Virus record (IMG/VR): IMGVR_UViG_2671181100_000005
Source: a virus
Taxonomy: Duplodnaviria; Heunggongvirae; Uroviricota; Caudoviricetes
Direction: 5' to 3' (one strand)
DNA: 9,275 nt
Both the position numbers and the translations under genes were made by a program. This document shows, one piece after another, positions 1-9,275 of the stretch (positions are counted from its first letter, which is position 1; each line of letters begins with the position of its first letter). The notes beneath the pieces were generated by a model. The model ran no database searches. It was given only the letters and a program-made list of their open reading frames with translations, and was not told where the DNA came from.

Positions 1-90
1 GGTCATGGCCTCCATAGTGATGGCGGGTCCTCCTTGTGGGGTGCCCTGCCACGGGGCGGGAGCATCGCGGAAAAAGGCTAGTTTTTGCAT
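1..90 (-). CDS. 5' end of an unidentified ORF running off the left edge
   Basis: Minus-strand frame is open from ATG at 90..88 (MQKLAFFRDAPAPWQGTPQGGPAITMEAMT...) to position 1. An alternative ATG at 15..13 is preceded by AAGGAGGA. No similarity to lambda gpA N-terminus by eye. Confidence 0.2.
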   Translation of the reverse strand, partial: MQKLAFFRDAPAPWQGTPQGGPAITMEAMT

Positions 91-251
91 TTTTATTCGT
101 CATCACCACCAATGCAATATATTGATATGACTTGATGTTTTATTTTTCGGTGTCGATTTCGATTGTTTTTTGTTCATCACTGACGCATAACGCCCACCAG
201 CGCAACGCTGAAAGCCAGTCAGTAAACTGGCTTCGGTCATTGTGCACTACG

Positions 252-794
252 TTACTTGTCTTTATCCGGCTGAAACTTATCAGGCACATTTCCGGTAGTT
301 TCCATCAGATAATCGGACAGCATTCGCGGGATGTTTTCATCAAGTTTTGTGCATGCGTTACAGGCTCTGACAACTTCTTTTTTCAGGCCATCCAGCATGG
401 CGGGGGTCATCTGTGGGAAGCTCCTTTGCATAGTAAGCGGCAGGCTGCCCATGATTGAAGAAATCTGACTCGCCAGTTTTGAAAGCGCATATATACAAAA
501 TTCCGTACTAATCACATCGCCGCGTTCGCGCTCGTTTTTAAGCTCCTGCGCCTCCGCCTGCGCTGTCAGCAATCTGATCCTGACTCGCAAAAGCTCATCA
601 TTATCAATCTCGCCTTTGTCGTCTGTAATCTGGTTAATTGCATTGCTAACCCGATTGTCTATTACGCTGGCAACATCATAAAACGCCTCGCGGCCTTTAC
701 GTTCAACGGGAGTCACTCCCCACTTGTCGAACGCTGTCGCACTTACACGGCAGCTTTGCGCCATGTTTTTTTTGTTCATCAGGTGCGATTTCAT
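252..794 (-). CDS. Terminase small subunit, lambda Nu1-like
   Basis: ORF-track protein matches my recollection of lambda Nu1 across the length, e.g. LLTAQAEAQELKNERERGDVISTEFCIYALSKLASQISSIMGSLPLTMQRSFP versus Nu1 LTRAQADAQELKNARDSAEVVETAFCTFVLSRIAGEIASILDGLPLSVQRRFP, and C-terminal LDENIPRMLSDYLMETTG versus LDELIPGLLSEYIEQSG. Start chosen at ATG 794..792 (GGGGA 6 nt upstream); ATG at 779 is an alternative. Lies directly downstream of the cos site, as in lambda. Confidence 0.85.
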   Translation of the reverse strand: MKSHLMNKKNMAQSCRVSATAFDKWGVTPVERKGREAFYDVASVIDNRVSNAINQITDDKGEIDNDELLRVRIRLLTAQAEAQELKNERERGDVISTEFCIYALSKLASQISSIMGSLPLTMQRSFPQMTPAMLDGLKKEVVRACNACTKLDENIPRMLSDYLMETTGNVPDKFQPDKDK

Positions 795-799
795 CAATA

Positions 800-990
800 T
801 CCCCACTTAAGTAATGTTTCAGGTTGGTGTATTGGCTTTATCTTTTCCTTTTTATTCATAGAGATAGAGCGAACAACAAAACCACCACCAGCACCCGAAA
901 AAGGCTCATAAATAGCGAAAACCCGCGAGGTCGCCGCCCCGTAGCCTACCGGATCGCCGGAAAGGACCCGCCAGCCAGAACGGGCCCTAA
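800..990 (-). other. Lambda-type cos site: cosN 12-nt cohesive end at 928..939 (complement), cosQ-like at about 945..985, divergent cosB-like at about 800..927
   Basis: Reverse complement of 907..940 reads GGGCGGCGACCTCGCGGGTTTTCGCTATTTATGA, identical to the first 34 nt of lambda as I remember them, then diverges. Reverse complement of 941..973 reads GGCGGGTCCTTTCCGGCGATCCGGTAGGCTACG, close to the lambda right end (GACGGGTCCTTTCCGGTGATCCGACAGGTTACG). Confidence 0.75.
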
Positions 991-995
991 TTTCA

Positions 996-1379
996 TCAAC
1001 CAATCAACTTATAGCGACCATCCCGTGCATTGCGACGTACACGCTCAATCTTGAGGCATAGCGCCGCATCTGGCTTTTTTGGGACAGGTACGCGGCAATA
1101 TTCAGAAGCTCGAGGAATATTGTTTATCCAGTCGATCACTTCACTTAAATACCAGGCCTTACGCCCTTCCGTAACCTGTACGCGTTCGGGGAACTCTCCG
1201 CGAGCCTCAAGGTTTAGCAATGTGCGACGGCTAAGGGTAGTAAGTTCCATCACCTGATTCATATCAACAAGGCGTTCACTTAAACGCATTTTGTCAGCAA
1301 TAGCCTTTAATTCCTCTACTGCTGGATCCGGATACATCATTTCGGCAATTGGCTTAAGGTCATTGTAATGATTCTGCAT
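996..1379 (-). CDS. AlpA-family HTH DNA-binding protein, second copy, with N- and C-terminal extensions
   Basis: Core MELTTLSRRTLLNLEARGEFPERVQVTEGRKAWYLSEVIDWINN resembles Phage_AlpA-type HTH proteins. ATG at 1379 is preceded by AAGGGGGA. Starts 11 nt after the D-like gene stop and ends next to cosQ. Confidence 0.7.
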   Translation of the reverse strand: MQNHYNDLKPIAEMMYPDPAVEELKAIADKMRLSERLVDMNQVMELTTLSRRTLLNLEARGEFPERVQVTEGRKAWYLSEVIDWINNIPRASEYCRVPVPKKPDAALCLKIERVRRNARDGRYKLIG

Positions 1380-1390
1380 TGTATCCCCCT

Positions 1391-1732
1391 TTACACACGA
1401 GCCAGCGGCTGAACAGAAATACCTGAGCCAACAAACGCGGCAACCTTTGCCGACAGTTCTTTTACAGACTCAGGCCAGTTCAGAGCATCAACATTTAAAA
1501 CACCTGTCTTATAAACCTGTGCCTGTGTTTTTTTCGCTGTGTCGATTTGTACAGCGGAAACATAAACCGCTTTGCCTGCGCTCGTTCCATCCCATACCAC
1601 TAGCGCACCAGTTGCATCTTCCTGCATCAGTGGCGTAAACGCAGGTATTACCCCTTTATTGGCTGAAAATATCCCCAGCGTAGTAACCAGTGCTTCAGTG
1701 CCAGACATGAGTTCAGTGTAATGAGTAGCCAT
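1391..1732 (-). CDS. Head decoration protein, lambda gpD-like
   Basis: PAFTPLMQEDATGALVVWDGTSAGKAVYVSAV and YKTGVLNVDALNWPESVKELSAKVAAFVGSGISV parallel lambda gpD [32 protein letters not shown] and [35 protein letters not shown] (from memory). 113 aa versus 110 aa for gpD. RBS GGGGGAG precedes the ATG. Confidence 0.85.
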   Translation of the reverse strand: MATHYTELMSGTEALVTTLGIFSANKGVIPAFTPLMQEDATGALVVWDGTSAGKAVYVSAVQIDTAKKTQAQVYKTGVLNVDALNWPESVKELSAKVAAFVGSGISVQPLARV

Positions 1733-1741
1733 TGCTCCCCC

Positions 1742-2788
1742 TTAGCCAATGCGAACGGTAACAAAACGATTGATGCGGGCCGGTATTGGCTGTGGTGCTG
1801 AATGTGTCTGCACATATTCAATAGCCGGATCACCAGGCACAATATAGTTTTTCGGTGCAAGTTCGGCTTTAGTCAGCCCCATCCGGATTAGCTCCGGATC
1901 CTGAATACCGCCATAAGCGACAATCCCCTGAAGAGCCGTATTGCCAAGCACCATCAAATCAGGATCAAGGAAATATTTTTCAGTTCCGTCCTCGTCGGTA
2001 TAACGCCCGCTGTAAACAACAATCGCAACATCGCCCATATACCCTTTAAAACTCACCGAATCACCAAGGTCTTTAAGGGCCGTTTCCAGTTCGGAATTAG
2101 AACCACGACGAGTATCCAGAGCCTCTTTTATCGCCCTGAATGAACGGTATTTCTTCCATACATTACCGCCCATAATGATAATATTAGTGACGCCCTCACT
2201 AAATTCTGCGTAGCTCTCAATATCATCATTTGGATCAAAAGCTTCTTTATCCTTACCTGACCACTCAGCACCGCCAGACTGAGTGATGATATTTTGTGGT
2301 TTAATATTCCAGTCCAGCTCATAACGTTCAATACCATCGCCCTCAATGATATTTTTCCCCGTTGTGATTGCCTGAACGGCAAGCCATTCAATACGTGCAC
2401 GAATAGCTTTAGCCTGATTTACAATCGCCTGTTTAACTTTAATATTACGCGCTCCAAAAGCATTGTATTGCTCAGGTGATACACCAGCAGGGCGCACAGC
2501 TAACTTATTTGGATCAATGCTGCTTTTCGGTTTCATATAGCCAGGGCGAATTGTTTTTGATTCGTATCCCTCATCTCGTGAAACTTTACTGCCCACCATA
2601 GGAGAGCAAAACGCCGCGATCGGGATATTTGGATCGTCGATCGTATCAAGAATAATGTCTCTCGATTCAAACATTACCGAGCGAGTGAAAAACAAACTGG
2701 TAAACAACGCATTTAATTTTTTTTGCACATCTTCAGCATTAGCCACCTGCACAAGCTGTGTAGGCGAATATAAGTCAACCATACTCAT
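1742..2788 (-). CDS. Major capsid protein, lambda gpE family
   Basis: Long collinear similarity to lambda gpE as I recall it: NIITQSGGAEWSGKDKEAFDPNDDIESYA, DTRRGSNSELETALKDLGDSVSFKGYMGDVAIVVYSG, MVLGNT, PGDPAIEY. Start set at the MSM motif (ATG 2788, or 2782 with AAAGAGG 6 nt upstream), like lambda E's MSM start. The longer track ORF (start 2869) is probably an upstream extension. Confidence 0.9.
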   Translation of the reverse strand: MSMVDLYSPTQLVQVANAEDVQKKLNALFTSLFFTRSVMFESRDIILDTIDDPNIPIAAFCSPMVGSKVSRDEGYESKTIRPGYMKPKSSIDPNKLAVRPAGVSPEQYNAFGARNIKVKQAIVNQAKAIRARIEWLAVQAITTGKNIIEGDGIERYELDWNIKPQNIITQSGGAEWSGKDKEAFDPNDDIESYAEFSEGVTNIIIMGGNVWKKYRSFRAIKEALDTRRGSNSELETALKDLGDSVSFKGYMGDVAIVVYSGRYTDEDGTEKYFLDPDLMVLGNTALQGIVAYGGIQDPELIRMGLTKAELAPKNYIVPGDPAIEYVQTHSAPQPIPARINRFVTVRIG

Positions 2789-2953
2789 CCTCTTTACATT
2801 CATTACAAATAATTGTGAATATATTCTATTACCGATGTCTGCTATGCGAATACATGCAACCAAGTGCAATGTTGTATAAAATATGCCGTGACAACTTCAG
2901 TGCTGATAATTCGTGTTAATGTATTTACTTCCTTTGGTCGGGATTTATGTAGC

Positions 2954-2993
2954 ATGCCGGAAAATCTATTTTTTTCCGGCATCTTTTTGTTTG
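2954..2993 (+). terminator. Perfect 11-bp inverted repeat stem-loop followed by a T-tract (candidate intrinsic terminator, plus-strand orientation)
   Basis: ATGCCGGAAAA (2954..2964), 7-nt loop, TTTTCCGGCAT (2972..2982), then CTTTTTGTTTG. Lies just downstream of the ssb stop on the opposite strand; on the minus strand the U-tract is absent, so the orientation and role are uncertain. Confidence 0.4.
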
Positions 2994-2999
2994 CAGAAT

Positions 3000-3422
3000 T
3001 TAAAACGGTATATTATCGCCGTACGGATCATCATTCCCCGACTGTTGTTTTGCCCTGTTCAGTGCGTCAGTGGCCTGCCCCTGCTGGCCTTTTTTGCCGC
3101 CCGGTCGCGCTGTTCGCGCACTGATCACGCTGTCTGCGATAACCTGCCAGCCCTGCCGCGTTTCGCCGTTCTGGCCTGTCCACTGGCTTACCTGCATGTT
3201 ACCCGCCACGCTCACCAGTTCGCCTTTGTGGTGTTTTGCCAGTGCGTCGGCCTGTCTGCCAAACGCCAGGACGGATAACCACATCATCGCCGTTCCGTCA
3301 TCTGCCTGGCTGCACGGAAGGGGGACCGCCATACTAGCCATCGCCATTTGTGTACCCTTGCTGGTGGTCTTTAACTGCGGATCAGCCACCAGCCGTCCGT
3401 AAGCCGCTATCTGTGCTGTCAT
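3000..3422 (-). CDS. ssb: Single-stranded DNA-binding protein (SSB)
   Basis: OB-fold-like N-terminal region (YGRLVADPQL..., WLSVLAFGRQADALAKHHKGELVSVAGNMQVSQWTGQNGETRQGWQVIADSV) parallels E. coli SSB. Gly/Gln-rich linker and acidic C-terminal tail ...DDPYGDNIPF match the SSB signature ...DDDIPF. Start ATG overlaps the upstream ORF stop (ATGA). Confidence 0.85.
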   Translation of the reverse strand: MTAQIAAYGRLVADPQLKTTSKGTQMAMASMAVPLPCSQADDGTAMMWLSVLAFGRQADALAKHHKGELVSVAGNMQVSQWTGQNGETRQGWQVIADSVISARTARPGGKKGQQGQATDALNRAKQQSGNDDPYGDNIPF

Positions 3423-3664
3423 GCTGTCTGCTCTCCGGTTTTAACGTTGATGGTTGTCACCTGTTCCGCTTCGGCAATCTCCCGTTCTGTCAGCGTGGCA
3501 AAGTTTGCAGCTGCCGTTGTCATGAATGCGCTAATCAGTTCGGGATGTGCTTTCGCATATCCTTCCCCGGCGTTGCGGTCGATGATTTTTATCGACACCC
3601 TTAACCAGTGTTCCGTCAAATCAAGGGCGTGCGATTGTGATTTTTTTATGTGCTTCGCTGTCAT
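3419..3664 (-). CDS. Hypothetical protein (81 aa), translationally coupled to ssb
   Basis: ORF stop overlaps the ssb start in an ATGA arrangement. RBS is weak (GAGA) and there is no recognisable motif. The competing plus-strand ORF in the same region looks non-protein-like. Confidence 0.4.
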   Translation of the reverse strand: MTAKHIKKSQSHALDLTEHWLRVSIKIIDRNAGEGYAKAHPELISAFMTTAAANFATLTEREIAEAEQVTTINVKTGEQTA

Positions 3665-3708: not shown

Positions 3709-3905
3709 CCTTCACCTGTTCACCTTTTGATATTTTATCTTTTAATTCATAATGTTAAGGGGTGAACAGTTTCACAAAAACTATTCACCAACTGTTCACC
3801 ACTGTTCACNNNNNNNNNNNNNNNNNNNNNNNNNNNNNNNNNNNNNNNNNNNNNNNNNNNNNNNNNNNNNNNNNNNNNNNNNNNNNGTGAACAGTGGTGA
3901 ACAGT
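3709..3905. repeat. Iteron array of octamer TGTTCACC / GGTGAACA (P4 ori/crr-type), candidate replication origin
   Basis: Exact octamers at 3717..3724 and 3793..3800 (TGTTCACC) and 3761..3768 and 3896..3903 (GGTGAACA). Gap-truncated copies at 3803..3809 and 3887..3893, plus degenerate copies (3709..3716, 3783..3789). Sits immediately downstream of the primase-helicase gene. Confidence 0.6.
3810..3886. other. Run of 77 N (unresolved or masked sequence) inside the iteron region
   Basis: Directly visible in the sequence. Flanked by a perfect 19-nt inverted repeat (3791..3809 ACTGTTCACCACTGTTCAC; 3887..3905 GTGAACAGTGGTGAACAGT). Confidence 0.95.
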
Positions 3906-7407: not shown

Positions 7408-7617
7408 TTACGCTGCCTTACCTGAATTAATGCGATCCCGGCTTTTAACCCATTCCATAACCTCGGACAGCAGCCAACCTACAGAACGCCCACCAAGATT
7501 ACGGCGAGACGGAAAGCTCCCTTTTTTCTCCAGTTCGTAGCGTGTAGTGCGACACACTCCAGTTAACTTACGACATTCATCCTCACGGATTACGCGATCT
7601 TCATTTATTTCACGCAT
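7408..7617 (-). CDS. alpA: AlpA-family phage regulatory protein (transcriptional activator / excision regulator)
   Basis: RVIREDECRKLTGVCRTTRYELEKKGSFPSRRNLGGRSVGWLLSEVMEWV is a typical AlpA HTH. Start set at the internal Met (MREINED..., 70 aa, the usual AlpA size). The track ORF extends to 7704 through an AT-rich stretch that looks more like promoter than coding sequence. Confidence 0.8.
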   Translation of the reverse strand: MREINEDRVIREDECRKLTGVCRTTRYELEKKGSFPSRRNLGGRSVGWLLSEVMEWVKSRDRINSGKAA

Positions 7618-8036: not shown

Positions 8037-9275
8037 TCAAGAATTTTGGGGGTAAATTCGCGGGGTCATAACAACGATTTTTTCATCATTGTTCTGGAGA
8101 AGCTCGAGACGGTCTACCCATAGATTAAGAGCATCACGTTTTGCATCAAGGTAGCGGGAGTGGTTATAGACTCGTTGCATCCCTGGCATCTGGTGGGCTG
8201 TAAGCTGCTCGACAATATGCGGATCCACGCCTAAATCGTTCAGCATGGTTGTAAATGTGTGCCGGATATCGTGTAACGTCCAGGGGGCTTGATTAATTCG
8301 TCTGTGCGCTGTTCTTCCGTACTCTGCTACCGAAGATTGTCCTTTCAGTTCACCAAGCAATAAGCCTGTGTGTCTGTTCTGCTCCACCAGTTGCGTGACG
8401 AACGGCAAAATGCTTTCCGGTATTGGCCTGAATATGGCGACCTTCGTTTTGCTGTGCTCCTTCGGTACTGTCCAGAGCATTTCTTTAAAATCCCACTCCT
8501 GCACCTCAGAGCGCCTTAGCTCAGTGGTACGGCATCCAAAAACAATCAGGAGGCGAATTAGGGCGCTGTAGTATGGCGGGAATATTTTGTCATCCAGGGC
8601 GCGGAGTAATTCCCCAAGCTCCTTATTTGTTAGTACGCGCTCGCTCACTTCTGCTTTTTTTCCCACATCACCGACAACCATATCATCAAGAACGTTGCTG
8701 ATTGCGTATCGTCGTTTTCGGCAGTACTTAAGCGCCTGTTTGCATACCTGTAGCAAAAATCCGGCAGATACTGGGCTTCGCTTTGCCATCTGGTCAAAAC
8801 ATGCCAACCAGTGCCGTAGCTCGCATTTTTCCAACGGCAAAGCGCCAATCTGGCTGATTATGTGTTTATTGATCCGGCTTTTCAGTGATTCGTAGTCAGT
8901 GCGCTTTTCCTTTGCATACGATTCAAGCCAGTAAGTGAGCGCTTCCTTAACTGTCACGGGGGCTAACGCATCCTGTACAGCACGATTAAGCTCATAGCGC
9001 GGATTTTTCCCCTCAGCCAGCCAGGCGCGACACTGTGCTGCTTTTTCCCTGGCTGCTTTCAGACTCAGATCGGGATAATTGCCCAGTCTCAGACGTTCCG
9101 GTGATACCTGCCTACCAGTTCCGGCCCTGTAAGTGAAATACCAGGTTAACAGGCCGCTGGTGGAATGTCTTACGCTAAGATTGCCACCGTCATTAAAAAA
9201 GGCGTTTTTTGTGGTTGGTGATCCGCTTAATTTTCGTAAAAGAGTGTCGCTAAGTCTATGAATTGCGCTGCTCAT
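8037..9275 (-). CDS. int: Tyrosine recombinase / integrase, P4-type
   Basis: N-terminal arm-type region (NDGGNLSVRHSTSGLLTWYFTYRAGTGRQ... YPDLSLKAAREKA) is typical of P4-family integrases. C-terminal catalytic motifs HDIRHTFTTMLNDLG and RVYNHSRY are present. The ATG sits exactly at the window edge (9275). Confidence 0.92.
   Translation of the reverse strand: MSSAIHRLSDTLLRKLSGSPTTKNAFFNDGGNLSVRHSTSGLLTWYFTYRAGTGRQVSPERLRLGNYPDLSLKAAREKAAQCRAWLAEGKNPRYELNRAVQDALAPVTVKEALTYWLESYAKEKRTDYESLKSRINKHIISQIGALPLEKCELRHWLACFDQMAKRSPVSAGFLLQVCKQALKYCRKRRYAISNVLDDMVVGDVGKKAEVSERVLTNKELGELLRALDDKIFPPYYSALIRLLIVFGCRTTELRRSEVQEWDFKEMLWTVPKEHSKTKVAIFRPIPESILPFVTQLVEQNRHTGLLLGELKGQSSVAEYGRTAHRRINQAPWTLHDIRHTFTTMLNDLGVDPHIVEQLTAHQMPGMQRVYNHSRYLDAKRDALNLWVDRLELLQNNDEKIVVMTPRIYPQNS

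What the first reader, a model, noticed from the sequence alone, without database searches (positions are those of the whole stretch)
800..990. cos site with a lambda-identical cosN and first 34 nt, but a divergent cosB
The cohesive end and the next 22 nt match lambda exactly (as I remember it), and the cosQ-like side is also close, yet the cosB stretch towards the Nu1-like gene diverges. A shared cosN would let a lambdoid helper terminase cut the site, while a private cosB, read by the element's own Nu1-like protein, would give packaging specificity to the island. This is a plausible packaging-redirection mechanism.
Basis: partly seen in the sequence, partly recalled or inferred. Interest (0 to 1): 0.75.

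Follow-up and report, generated by a model that had tools for sequence, protein, structure and literature searches.

The report
Satellite cos site with private cosB
This is the DNA-packaging site of a 10-kb E. coli phage satellite (a PICI): its cutting site is copied letter for letter from lambda-like phages, while the adjacent recognition site appears to be read by the satellite's own small terminase, a variant of a known hijacking strategy.

Summary
On the minus strand, the 12-nt cohesive end (928-939) and the next 22 nt are identical to lambda. The cosQ heptamer sits at lambda's distance. Similarity collapses after +34.

The window is a 10.24-kb phage-inducible chromosomal island with integrase, AlpA, primase, SSB, gpE-like and gpD-like head genes, cos and a full-length Nu1-family small terminase (TerS). 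It has no large terminase (TerL), portal, tail or lysis genes.

The "divergent cosB" is an organised cosB in lambda register. It has an R3-like element at +50..+63 and an inverted R2-like element at +106..+119, with a different R sequence derived from the N15 type.

In 71 distinct modules, the TerS recognition-helix type matches the R-sequence type without exception. The island type was never followed by TerL. TerS is under purifying selection.

The general principle was published for EcCICFT073 (Rpp, 2018/2019). What differs here is a complete TerS in place of Rpp, which predicts independence from the helper's TerS. I rate it a new variant of a known kind, of moderate interest.

The parts
963..969 (-). 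cosQ heptamer GGGTCCT, at -30..-24 from the nick as in lambda
   Evidence: Ungapped alignment with the lambda right end. It is conserved in all related islands.
906..971 (-). Lambda-like block from -32 to +34. It holds cosQ, the spacer, cosN and the 22 nt after the cohesive end. -4..+34 is identical to lambda.
   Evidence: This is the only part that matches sequenced phages.
928..939 (-). The 12-nt cohesive-end sequence GGGCGGCGACCT, the core of cosN
   Evidence: It is a single copy in the island.
877..890 (-). R3-like element TGGTGGTGGTTTTG at +50..+63, the position of lambda R3 (+50..65). It matches N15's mapped R3 at 9/12 with a 1-nt offset.
   Evidence: It is invariant or nearly so in 67 distinct island modules. 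It agrees in type with the TerS helix. R3 positions come from PMC9026076.
854..866 (-). Position equivalent to the lambda/21 IHF site I1 (+74..+86), in an A/T-rich spacer. The IHF consensus is not met.
   Evidence: The phage 21 record annotates I1 at 74..86. No WATCAANNNNTTR match with 2 or fewer mismatches lies between R3 and R2.
821..834 (+). R2-like element, inverted relative to R3. It reads AGGTTGGTGTATTG on the + strand and lies at +106..+119, the position of lambda/21 R2 (+107..122).
   Evidence: ACACCAACCTGAA is invariant in 67 modules.
795..807 (-). Possible R1 (AGTGGGGATATTG, +133..+145), overlapping the ribosome-binding site of the TerS gene. In the Nissle/O157 variants it is an exact 11-nt inverted copy of R2.
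   Evidence: Its status is uncertain because the SD/start region overlaps.
252..794 (-). Island small terminase, 180 aa, Nu1 family. It has an N15-like winged-helix DNA-binding domain with its own recognition helix (SATAFDKW) and a lambda-like C-terminal region followed by a 13-aa extension. The start was chosen as in RefSeq; alternative starts are at 806 (GTG) and 779 (ATG).
   Evidence: Pfam PF07471 at 77.5 bits against a cut-off of 30. phrog_57 over residues 1-173, E=3e-50. BLASTP to lambda Nu1, E=2e-33. 45.7% identity to N15 gp1. dN/dS 0.18.
996..1379 (-). 127-aa protein with an AlpA-type winged helix, ending 57 nt upstream of the nick. Its role is unknown. It is not Rpp.
1391..1732 (-). 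Homologue of the lambda gpD head decoration protein. Context: it belongs to the late module that travels with cos and TerS.
   Evidence: The module is shared at 95-97% identity with other islands.
1742..2782 (-). Homologue of the lambda gpE major capsid protein (context, same late module)

Best explanation
The site is the cos of a Gram-negative PICI, a satellite of lambda-like phages. I propose it is a three-part site with divided loyalties.

- cosQ and cosN are the subsites acted on by the large terminase. They are kept identical to those of lambdoid helpers, so a borrowed TerL (gpA-type) can nick the DNA 12 nt apart and terminate packaging.
- cosB is the anchoring subsite. It has the usual layout (R3, an A/T-rich spacer, inverted R2, perhaps R1) in the lambda register, but a different R sequence: GGTGGTGGT / GGTTGGTGT.
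- The island's own full-length Nu1-family TerS, encoded directly downstream, binds these R elements with its N-terminal winged helix. It recruits the helper's TerL through its C-terminal region.

The result would be island concatemers, not helper DNA, being loaded into helper-derived procapsids.

Shown here: the sequence anatomy, the homologies, the absence of a TerL gene, the agreement between DNA-binding-domain type and R type, purifying selection, and restriction of this module to satellites.

Inferred: binding of the island TerS to R3/R2, its interaction with helper TerL, the actual nick positions, and exclusion of helper DNA.
For: 1. Anatomy. +1..+34 is identical to lambda, cosQ is in place, and the alignment is gap-free from -32 to about +70. 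The R3-like and inverted R2-like elements sit at lambda/21 coordinates. In the Nissle island, R2 and R1 form an exact 11-nt inverted pair that occurs only there in 24.7 kb.

2. The island lacks TerL, portal, tail and lysis genes. It has all five PICI core components and is bounded by 25-nt direct repeats 10,242 bp apart.

3. TerS is a full-length Nu1 homologue.

4. Agreement of types. All 68 distinct modules with helix ATAFDKW carry GGTGGTGGTTTT and ACACCAACCTGAA. All 3 modules with the N15-type helix VQAFDKW carry GGTTGTTGTTTAAT and ATACAACAACCT. This set was collected by protein similarity, not by the cos sequence.

5. Satellite-only distribution. TerL follows TerS in 0 of 99 and 0 of 33 island-type modules. 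It does follow TerS in the two complete N15-type prophage modules; the third, L045, is a remnant with a truncated TerS. No sequenced phage has this cosB or a TerS above 46% identity.

6. Selection. dN/dS is 0.18 overall and 0.09 in the DNA-binding domain. Variable columns make up 13% of the DNA-binding domain but 70% of the C-terminal 40 aa. That pattern fits a fixed DNA specificity with a partner-adapting tail.

7. Modularity. Other cohesive-end variants (GGGCGGAAGGCG, GGGCGTCAGGCG) occur with phage-type cosB plus TerL, and also with island-type cosB without TerL.

8. Islands with a cos 99-100% identical to this one lie on the same contigs as prophages encoding lambda Nu1/gpA (L144, L077) or an N15-type TerS with a 21-like TerL (L090).

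9. Precedent. In EcCICFT073, cos1 with lambda-like cosQ/cosN and a foreign cosB is read by RppA, encoded at the same position downstream of cos (PMC6739421).
Against: - There is no experimental evidence for nicking, binding or transfer of this island.
- The island R sequence differs from the N15 type by only 1-3 bases (9/12 in R3). N15 terminase packages lambda DNA despite different R3 sequences (PMC9026076). Cross-recognition by an N15-type helper TerS, and so incomplete privacy, cannot be excluded.
- No IHF consensus lies between R3 and R2.
- R1 overlaps the ribosome-binding site and may not be a binding site.
- The 67 island-type sequences are closely related, so conservation of R3/R2 is only weakly discriminating. 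Most of the cos region is conserved.
- The type agreement rests on two types only, which amounts to one evolutionary switch.
- In two contigs the co-resident prophage has a different cohesive-end core from the island (L077; contig 2923302340_000009).
- TerS tail type did not track cohesive-end type.
- Which TerL is used remains unknown.
Confidence: 0.7

Rival explanations
1. cosB is not private. It belongs to the N15-like specificity group and is read by the TerS of an N15-type lambdoid helper. Such prophages exist in Escherichia. The island TerS would then be redundant, or would act mainly to compete with or poison the helper's terminase.
For: - Island R3 matches N15 R3 at 9/12, and R2 matches the N15-type R2 at 12/14.
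- The island DNA-binding domain is 56% identical to that of N15 gp1.
- Prophages with N15-type TerS and cosB are real, and one lies beside such an island (L090).
- N15 terminase is known to accept lambda cos (PMC9026076).
Against: - The two base changes in R3 and the two changes at the start of the recognition helix (V to A, Q to T) are fixed together in 68/68 versus 3/3 modules.
- The DNA-binding domain is the most strongly constrained part of the protein.
- Islands with this cos also sit beside prophages with pure lambda Nu1 and cosB (L144, L077), which could not read it.
Confidence: 0.15
2. The TerS-like protein works like Rpp. It forms a hetero-oligomer with the helper TerS, re-targets that complex to the island cosB, and still depends on the helper TerS to bring in TerL.
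For: - The gene sits exactly where rppA sits in EcCICFT073-type islands, directly downstream of cos.
- RppA shares the DNA-binding domain of the same family, phrog_57.
- The central oligomerisation region is well conserved with phage Nu1, so mixed oligomers are conceivable.
Against: - Unlike Rpp, which is 30-40 residues shorter and lacks the TerL-binding end (PMC9026076), this protein aligns with Nu1 to its last residues, including LDExIPxxLSxY. It therefore has what it needs to bind TerL itself.
- It has no detectable similarity to RppA, and no match to the deposited RppC chains.
- TerS-type islands have one cos; Rpp-type islands have two.
Confidence: 0.1
3. The region is a decaying fragment of a lambdoid prophage, a leftover cos and nu1 with no present function.
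For: cos followed by nu1 is the left end of any lambda-like genome. One related module is truncated or frameshifted (L103, 156 aa), and a few others start later.
Against: - The module is present at 80% coverage or more in 762 of 5,426 complete E. coli genomes.
- The ORF is intact at 180 aa in almost all variants, and dN/dS is 0.18.
- It always lies in the same place within complete PICIs bounded by att repeats.
- There is no trace of gene A downstream.
Confidence: 0.03

Closest known systems
EcCICFT073 cos1 / RppA system (Fillol-Salom et al. 2018, PMC6092414; 2019, PMC6739421; analysed by Murialdo and Feiss 2022, PMC9026076)
   Same: - It is the same kind of element with the same gene order: int, alpA, primase, SSB, gpE-like, gpD-like, one small ORF, cos, specificity gene, small ORF.
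- cos has lambda-identical +1..+34 and cosQ, with a foreign cosB.
- The specificity gene lies directly downstream of cos.
   Different: - The specificity protein here is a complete 180-aa Nu1 homologue, not the 144-aa Rpp. There is no BLAST similarity, and only the DNA-binding domain family is shared.
- cosB is longer (about 110 nt against about 65) and has R3 plus an inverted R2, not a single R3-PICI.
- There is one cos instead of two.
- The predicted consequence is that helper TerS is not needed.
cosB/TerS specificity pairs of lambdoid phages: lambda, phi80, 21 and N15 (Feiss laboratory, summarised in PMC9026076)
   Same: - The cos layout and register are the same: R3 at about +50..65 and an inverted R2 at about +107..122.
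- The TerS family is the same.
- Specificity resides in the recognition helix and the R sequence.
   Different: - The R sequence (GGTGGTGGT / GGTTGGTGT) and the helix (SATAFDKW) match none of the four. The closest is N15 (GGTTGTTGT, SVQAFDKW).
- No IHF consensus was found.
- The pair is carried by a satellite without TerL, not by a phage.
pac-type SaPIs with their own small terminase TerS-S (Ubeda et al. 2007, as cited in PMC6739421 and PMC6092414)
   Same: A satellite-encoded TerS homologue recognises the satellite's own packaging site and works with the helper's TerL.
   Different: - SaPIs use headful (pac) packaging, with no shared nicking site.
- They are Gram-positive and their TerS family is unrelated.
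- They need a second protein (Ppi) to block the helper TerS.
Satellites that simply carry the helper's cos: P4, and cos-type SaPIs such as SaPIbov5 (PMC5052747, PMC8569155)
   Same: The satellite carries a cos that the helper terminase can cut.
   Different: Those satellites copy the whole helper cos and encode no terminase subunit. Here only cosQ and cosN are helper-like.

Membership tests
Lambda-type cos site (cosQ-cosN-cosB) | 12-nt cohesive-end sequence with the conserved flanks at the nick sites | tested here: met
   -4..+34 is identical to lambda. Actual nicking was not tested.
Lambda-type cos site (cosQ-cosN-cosB) | cosQ heptamer GGGTCCT about 24-30 nt upstream of the nick | tested here: met
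   Window 963-969, the same distance as in lambda.
Lambda-type cos site (cosQ-cosN-cosB) | cosB with R3, then an IHF site, then inverted R2 (and R1), at fixed distance from cosN | tested here: inconclusive
   R3-like and inverted R2-like elements lie at the right coordinates. There is no IHF consensus with 2 or fewer mismatches. R1 overlaps the RBS.
Lambda packaging specificity (lambda R sequences) | R elements of the lambda sequence (CGTTTCCGTTCTTCTT type) | tested here: not met
   8/16 identity at R3 and 6/16 at R2.
Nu1-family small terminase (Pfam PF07471, phrog_57) | Profile match above the curated threshold and a full-length alignment to lambda Nu1 | tested here: met
   77.5 bits against a cut-off of 30. 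phrog_57 E=2.8e-50 over residues 1-173. BLASTP E=2e-33 over residues 6-166.
Nu1-family small terminase (Pfam PF07471, phrog_57) | Binding to cosB R elements and to the N-terminus of TerL | not testable with these tools
   Supported only indirectly: by the agreement of helix type with R type and by conservation of the C-terminal motif.
Gram-negative PICI (Fillol-Salom 2018; SatelliteFinder core set, PMC10085698) | Integrase, AlpA regulator, primase/replicase, capsid-morphogenesis gene and small terminase, all in one orientation; about 10 kb; no lysis, tail or TerL genes | tested here: met
   There are 10,242 bp between the 25-nt direct repeats.
Gram-negative PICI (Fillol-Salom 2018; SatelliteFinder core set, PMC10085698) | Induction, replication and high-frequency transfer by a helper phage | not testable with these tools
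   The only indirect support is that related late modules sit beside lambdoid prophages.
Rpp-type packaging redirection | An Rpp homologue (RppA/B/C) downstream of cos | tested here: not met
   No BLASTP alignment to RppA. No match to the RppC chains in the PDB search.
Rpp-type packaging redirection | R3-PICI core ACCACCACC at +55..+63, and a second, inverted cos | tested here: not met
   The reverse complement, GGTGGTGGT, lies at +51..+59 instead. The island has a single cos.
Capsid-forming PICI (cf-PICI) | Own TerL, portal, protease, HNH and head-tail connectors | tested here: not met
   None of these genes is in the island.

The most novel reading that the evidence does not exclude
The island TerS and cosB form a packaging-specificity class found only in satellites. 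It was derived from an N15-type phage pair by a matched two-residue and two-base switch. It would make hijacking independent of the helper's small terminase. Because the C-terminal tail and the cosN core are exchangeable modules, the same DNA-recognition unit could be plugged onto the large terminases of several lambdoid lineages. Rpp would then be a truncated descendant of such a satellite TerS, at the same locus.
Probability: 0.4. Interest if true: 0.6.

Novelty: new variant of a known kind. Interest (0 to 1): 0.5.

Why it matters
About one complete E. coli genome in seven carries this cos+TerS module (762 of 5,426), including Nissle 1917 and O157:H7. It is therefore a major route by which lambda-like phages could move satellites and their cargo.

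The only E. coli PICI packaging mechanism studied so far (Rpp) needs the helper's small terminase. A satellite with a complete TerS predicts a different dependency and a different way for helpers to escape.

The matched change in recognition helix (VQ to AT) and R sequence (GGTTGTTGT to GGTGGTGGT / GGTTGGTGT) is a compact natural experiment on how TerS reads cosB. That question has been hard to address in vitro for lambda.

It also suggests design rules for cosmid-like or PICI-based delivery vectors: keep cosQ/cosN and swap cosB together with the TerS DNA-binding domain.

Tried and rejected
- **Simple lambda cos copy.** Rejected, because identity falls to chance after about +70 and the lambda R elements are absent.
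- **Rpp system.** Rejected, because there is no similarity to RppA or RppC.
- **The 127-aa ORF upstream of cos as Rpp.** It is an AlpA-family protein with no similarity to the 137-aa ORF at that position in EcCICFT073.
- **A remnant of gene A downstream of TerS.** The 45-aa ORF there has no similarity to TerL N-termini.
- **IHF site.** No consensus match with 2 or fewer mismatches lies between R3 and R2.
- **Genome-collection scan with the single protein.** It found nothing. The scan with an alignment returned only N15-like prophage TerS at 29-46% identity, not island relatives.
- **TerS C-terminal tail tracking the cohesive-end type.** It does not.
- **Co-resident prophage always sharing the island's cohesive end.** True for L144 and L090. 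False for L077 and for contig 2923302340_000009.
- **Identifying the helper prophage in the host genome of the best match.** Not possible, because the search tool lists one place per record.
- **Structure prediction.** Not run. Full-length homology to lambda Nu1 already places the N-terminal domain, and the tool's input rules would have needed an expensive database search first.

Full report
**1. The observation**

I fetched the ends of lambda (NC_001416) and aligned them without gaps to the minus strand of the window.

- The cohesive-end 12-mer GGGCGGCGACCT is at 928-939. The exact match continues to +34 (window 906).
- To the left, 27 of the 32 bases before the nick match. The cosQ heptamer GGGTCCT lies at -30..-24 (window 963-969), the same distance as in lambda.
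- Beyond -32 and beyond +34 the match decays. Lambda's R3 position scores 8/16 and its R2 position 6/16.
- A sensitive BLAST of 700-1100 against 50,697 phage records finds only about -32..+41, in about a hundred lambdoid phages, and nothing for the cosB part.

The description is accurate and far beyond chance.

**2. What the surrounding DNA is**

The window is 99-100% identical to a segment found in 81 complete E. coli genomes. In strain CFS3313 it lies between clpS and cspD. It is bounded by a 25-nt direct repeat with 10,242 bp spacing.

All genes but one run on the minus strand:

- integrase (8037-9275) and AlpA (7408-7617);
- an Icd-like gene, a DUF4222 gene and a D5/P4-type primase;
- an iteron region and SSB;
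- a gpE-family capsid gene and a gpD-family decoration gene;
- a 127-aa AlpA-domain protein, then cos;
- a 180-aa gene that RefSeq annotates as "terminase small subunit".

There is no large terminase, portal, protease, tail or lysis gene. This is the full core set used to define Gram-negative PICIs (PMC6092414, PMC10085698).

EcCICFT073, the model element, has the same order. Its cos1 sits between a small ORF and the 144-aa RppA. RppA therefore occupies the place that the Nu1-like gene occupies here.

**3. The Nu1-like protein**

The protein aligns with lambda Nu1 from residue 6 to 166 (35% identity, E=2e-33). It aligns with phrog_57 over residues 1-173. Its closest phage relative is N15 gp1, at 45.7% identity.

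Pfam sees only the C-terminal two thirds because the N-terminal DNA-binding domain is of the N15 kind. It has no similarity to RppA and no match to the RppC chains in the PDB. RppA matches only the DNA-binding-domain part of phrog_57.

Unlike Rpp, which lacks the last 30-40 residues thought to bind TerL (PMC9026076), this protein keeps the C-terminal motif. It reads LDENIPRMLSDYL, against lambda's LDELIPGLLSEYI. It then adds 13 residues.

**4. cosB is organised, not merely divergent**

The island stays in lambda's register from -32 to about +70.

- At +50..+63 it has TGGTGGTGGTTTTG, where lambda and 21 have R3 (+50..65) (PMC9026076).
- At +106..+119 it has the inverted AGGTTGGTGTATTG, where they have R2 (+107..122).
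- At +133..+145 there is a weaker copy that overlaps the ribosome-binding site.
- In the Nissle 1917 and O157:H7 versions of the module, R2 and R1 are an exact 11-nt inverted pair, GTTGGTGTATT. It occurs nowhere else in 24.7 kb. This echoes lambda, where R2 and R1 are identical.
- An IHF consensus between R3 and R2 was not found.

The R sequence is a near relative of N15's mapped R3. GGTTGTTGTTTA in N15 compares with GGTGGTGGTTTT here: 9/12 identity with a one-base offset.

**5. Comparative tests**

*Agreement between protein type and site type.* I collected TerS relatives from IMG/VR by protein similarity, added loci found earlier, and obtained 71 distinct cos+TerS modules.

| Recognition helix | Modules | R3-type sequence | R2-type sequence |
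|---|---|---|---|
| ATAFDKW (island type) | 68 | GGTGGTGGTTTT | ACACCAACCTGAA |
| VQAFDKW (N15 type) | 3 | GGTTGTTGTTTAAT | ATACAACAACCT |

There are no exceptions. The two complete N15-type modules are ordinary prophages with a TerL right after TerS. None of the 33 island-type modules with enough downstream sequence has one. Nor do any of the 99 loci found by a cos/R3 pattern.

*Selection.* Among 49 intact genes (32 distinct proteins), dN/dS is 0.18. It is 0.09 in the DNA-binding domain. Only 13% of columns in the DNA-binding domain vary, against 70% in the last 40 residues.

*Modularity of the cohesive end.* Among islands with identical cosB, the cohesive-end core itself varies: GGGCGGCGACCT, GGGCGGAAGGCG, GGGCGTCAGGCG and others. 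The same variants occur in prophages with lambda-, 21- or N15-type cosB and a TerL.

*Co-resident prophages.* The late module (SSB to TerS, 95-97% identical) also occurs in satellites lying inside or beside lambdoid prophages on the same contig, as in the helper-embedded PICIs of PMC10111431. Two such prophages encode lambda Nu1/gpA with lambda cosB. One encodes an N15-type TerS with a 21-like TerL.

*Frequency.* 762 of 5,426 complete E. coli genomes hold the cos+TerS module at 80% coverage or more.

**6. Mechanism**

TerL-read subsites are shared with helpers. The TerS-read subsite and its reader are the satellite's own.

This combines two known satellite strategies, carrying helper cos (P4, cos-SaPIs) and encoding one's own TerS (pac-SaPIs). 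It is the full-length-TerS counterpart of the Rpp system.

What is inferred rather than shown is binding, the TerL partnership, the ends, and exclusivity. The main weakness is how close the R sequence is to the N15 type, together with the known tolerance of N15-type terminase. A helper with an N15-type TerS might also read this cosB. The rivals are listed with their tests.

**7. Novelty**

Two things were already published:

- PICI cos sites keep cosQ and cosN but replace cosB (PMC6092414, PMC6739421, PMC9026076).
- Many PICIs carry a terS homologue "responsible for redirecting packaging" (PMC10085698).

Four full-text searches turned up no description of the following:

- a cos-type PICI with a complete Nu1-family TerS;
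- its R3/R2 elements;
- the matched helix and R-sequence switch;
- its satellite-only distribution.

I therefore rate it a new variant of a known kind, of moderate interest.

Noticed in passing
window 881-889 (+51..+59), compared with L005:25612-25620 (+55..+63 of EcCICFT073 cos1): The island's R3 core GGTGGTGGT is the exact reverse complement of ACCACCACC. Murialdo and Feiss proposed ACCACCACC as the conserved Rpp-binding core (R3-PICI). The two lie at nearly the same distance from cosN but in opposite orientation. No explanation so far accounts for this.
   Followed up: partly
IMG/VR loci L047-L305 (for example L186, L188, L194, L169, L187); not in the window: The 12-nt cohesive-end core is polymorphic (GGGCGGCGACCT, GGGCGGAAGGCG, GGGCGTCAGGCG, GGGCGGCAGACG, GGGCGGCTGACG, GGGCGTCGACCT and others). 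It assorts independently of cosB type (lambda, 21, N15 or island) in both prophages and satellites. The flanks CGCGGGTTTTCGCTATTTATGA stay fixed.
   Followed up: partly
L005:26139-26308 (EcCICFT073 cos2) and L046:6005-6130 (strain 500010): Rpp-type islands carry a second, inverted cos whose cosB is of a phage type. It is 21-like in CFT073 and N15-like (GGTTGTTGTTTAAT / ATACAACAACCT) in strain 500010. TerS-type islands (this window, Nissle, O157) have a single cos.
   Followed up: partly
window 3810-3886: A run of 77 N replaces 111 bases present in the matching genomes. It lies in the iteron region (GTGAACAG / CTGTTCAC repeats at 3716-3904) between the primase and the next ORF, presumably the island's replication origin. 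As a result, coordinates in L001 are offset by 6000 below this point and by 6034 above it.
   Followed up: yes
window 996-1379 (minus strand), compared with L010:11559-11972 and L005:25083-25496: The slot just upstream of cos holds a second, longer AlpA-family protein here (127 aa, phrog_2790). In the Nissle, O157 and CFT073 islands it holds an unrelated 137-aa protein. That protein's residues 45-119 match the C-terminal end of head maturation protease/scaffold proteins (phrog_53), which hints at a scaffold-like function.
   Followed up: partly
window 252-296 (last 13-15 codons of TerS): The island TerS proteins extend about 13 residues beyond the end of phage Nu1 proteins (TTGNVPDKFQPDKDK here; TTGNVPEKLLQKKGE in Nissle/O157). 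The start of the extension, TTGNVP, is conserved. Its function is unknown.
   Followed up: no
window 166-179 and 768-781: An exact 14-nt direct repeat (TGATGAACAAAAAA on the minus strand) occurs at the internal ATG-AAC-AAA-AAA of the TerS gene. It occurs again 70 nt after the TerS stop, inside a 45-codon ORF with no similarity to TerL.
   Followed up: partly
L077, L090, L144 (IMG/VR contigs 2623620496_000002, 3300028982_000003 and one other): The SSB-capsid-decoration-AlpA-like-cos-TerS block of this window (232-3600) recurs at 95-97% identity in satellites with different integrase and replication modules. These lie 3-12 kb downstream of a prophage terminase gene, as in helper-embedded PICIs. 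The late module behaves as an exchangeable cassette.
   Followed up: partly
L001:5091-5115 and 15333-15357 (just outside the window on both sides): A 25-nt direct repeat (ATTAACTACACCATTRACTACACCG, 24/25 identical) bounds the 10.24-kb island between clpS and cspD. It is the probable att core.
   Followed up: yes
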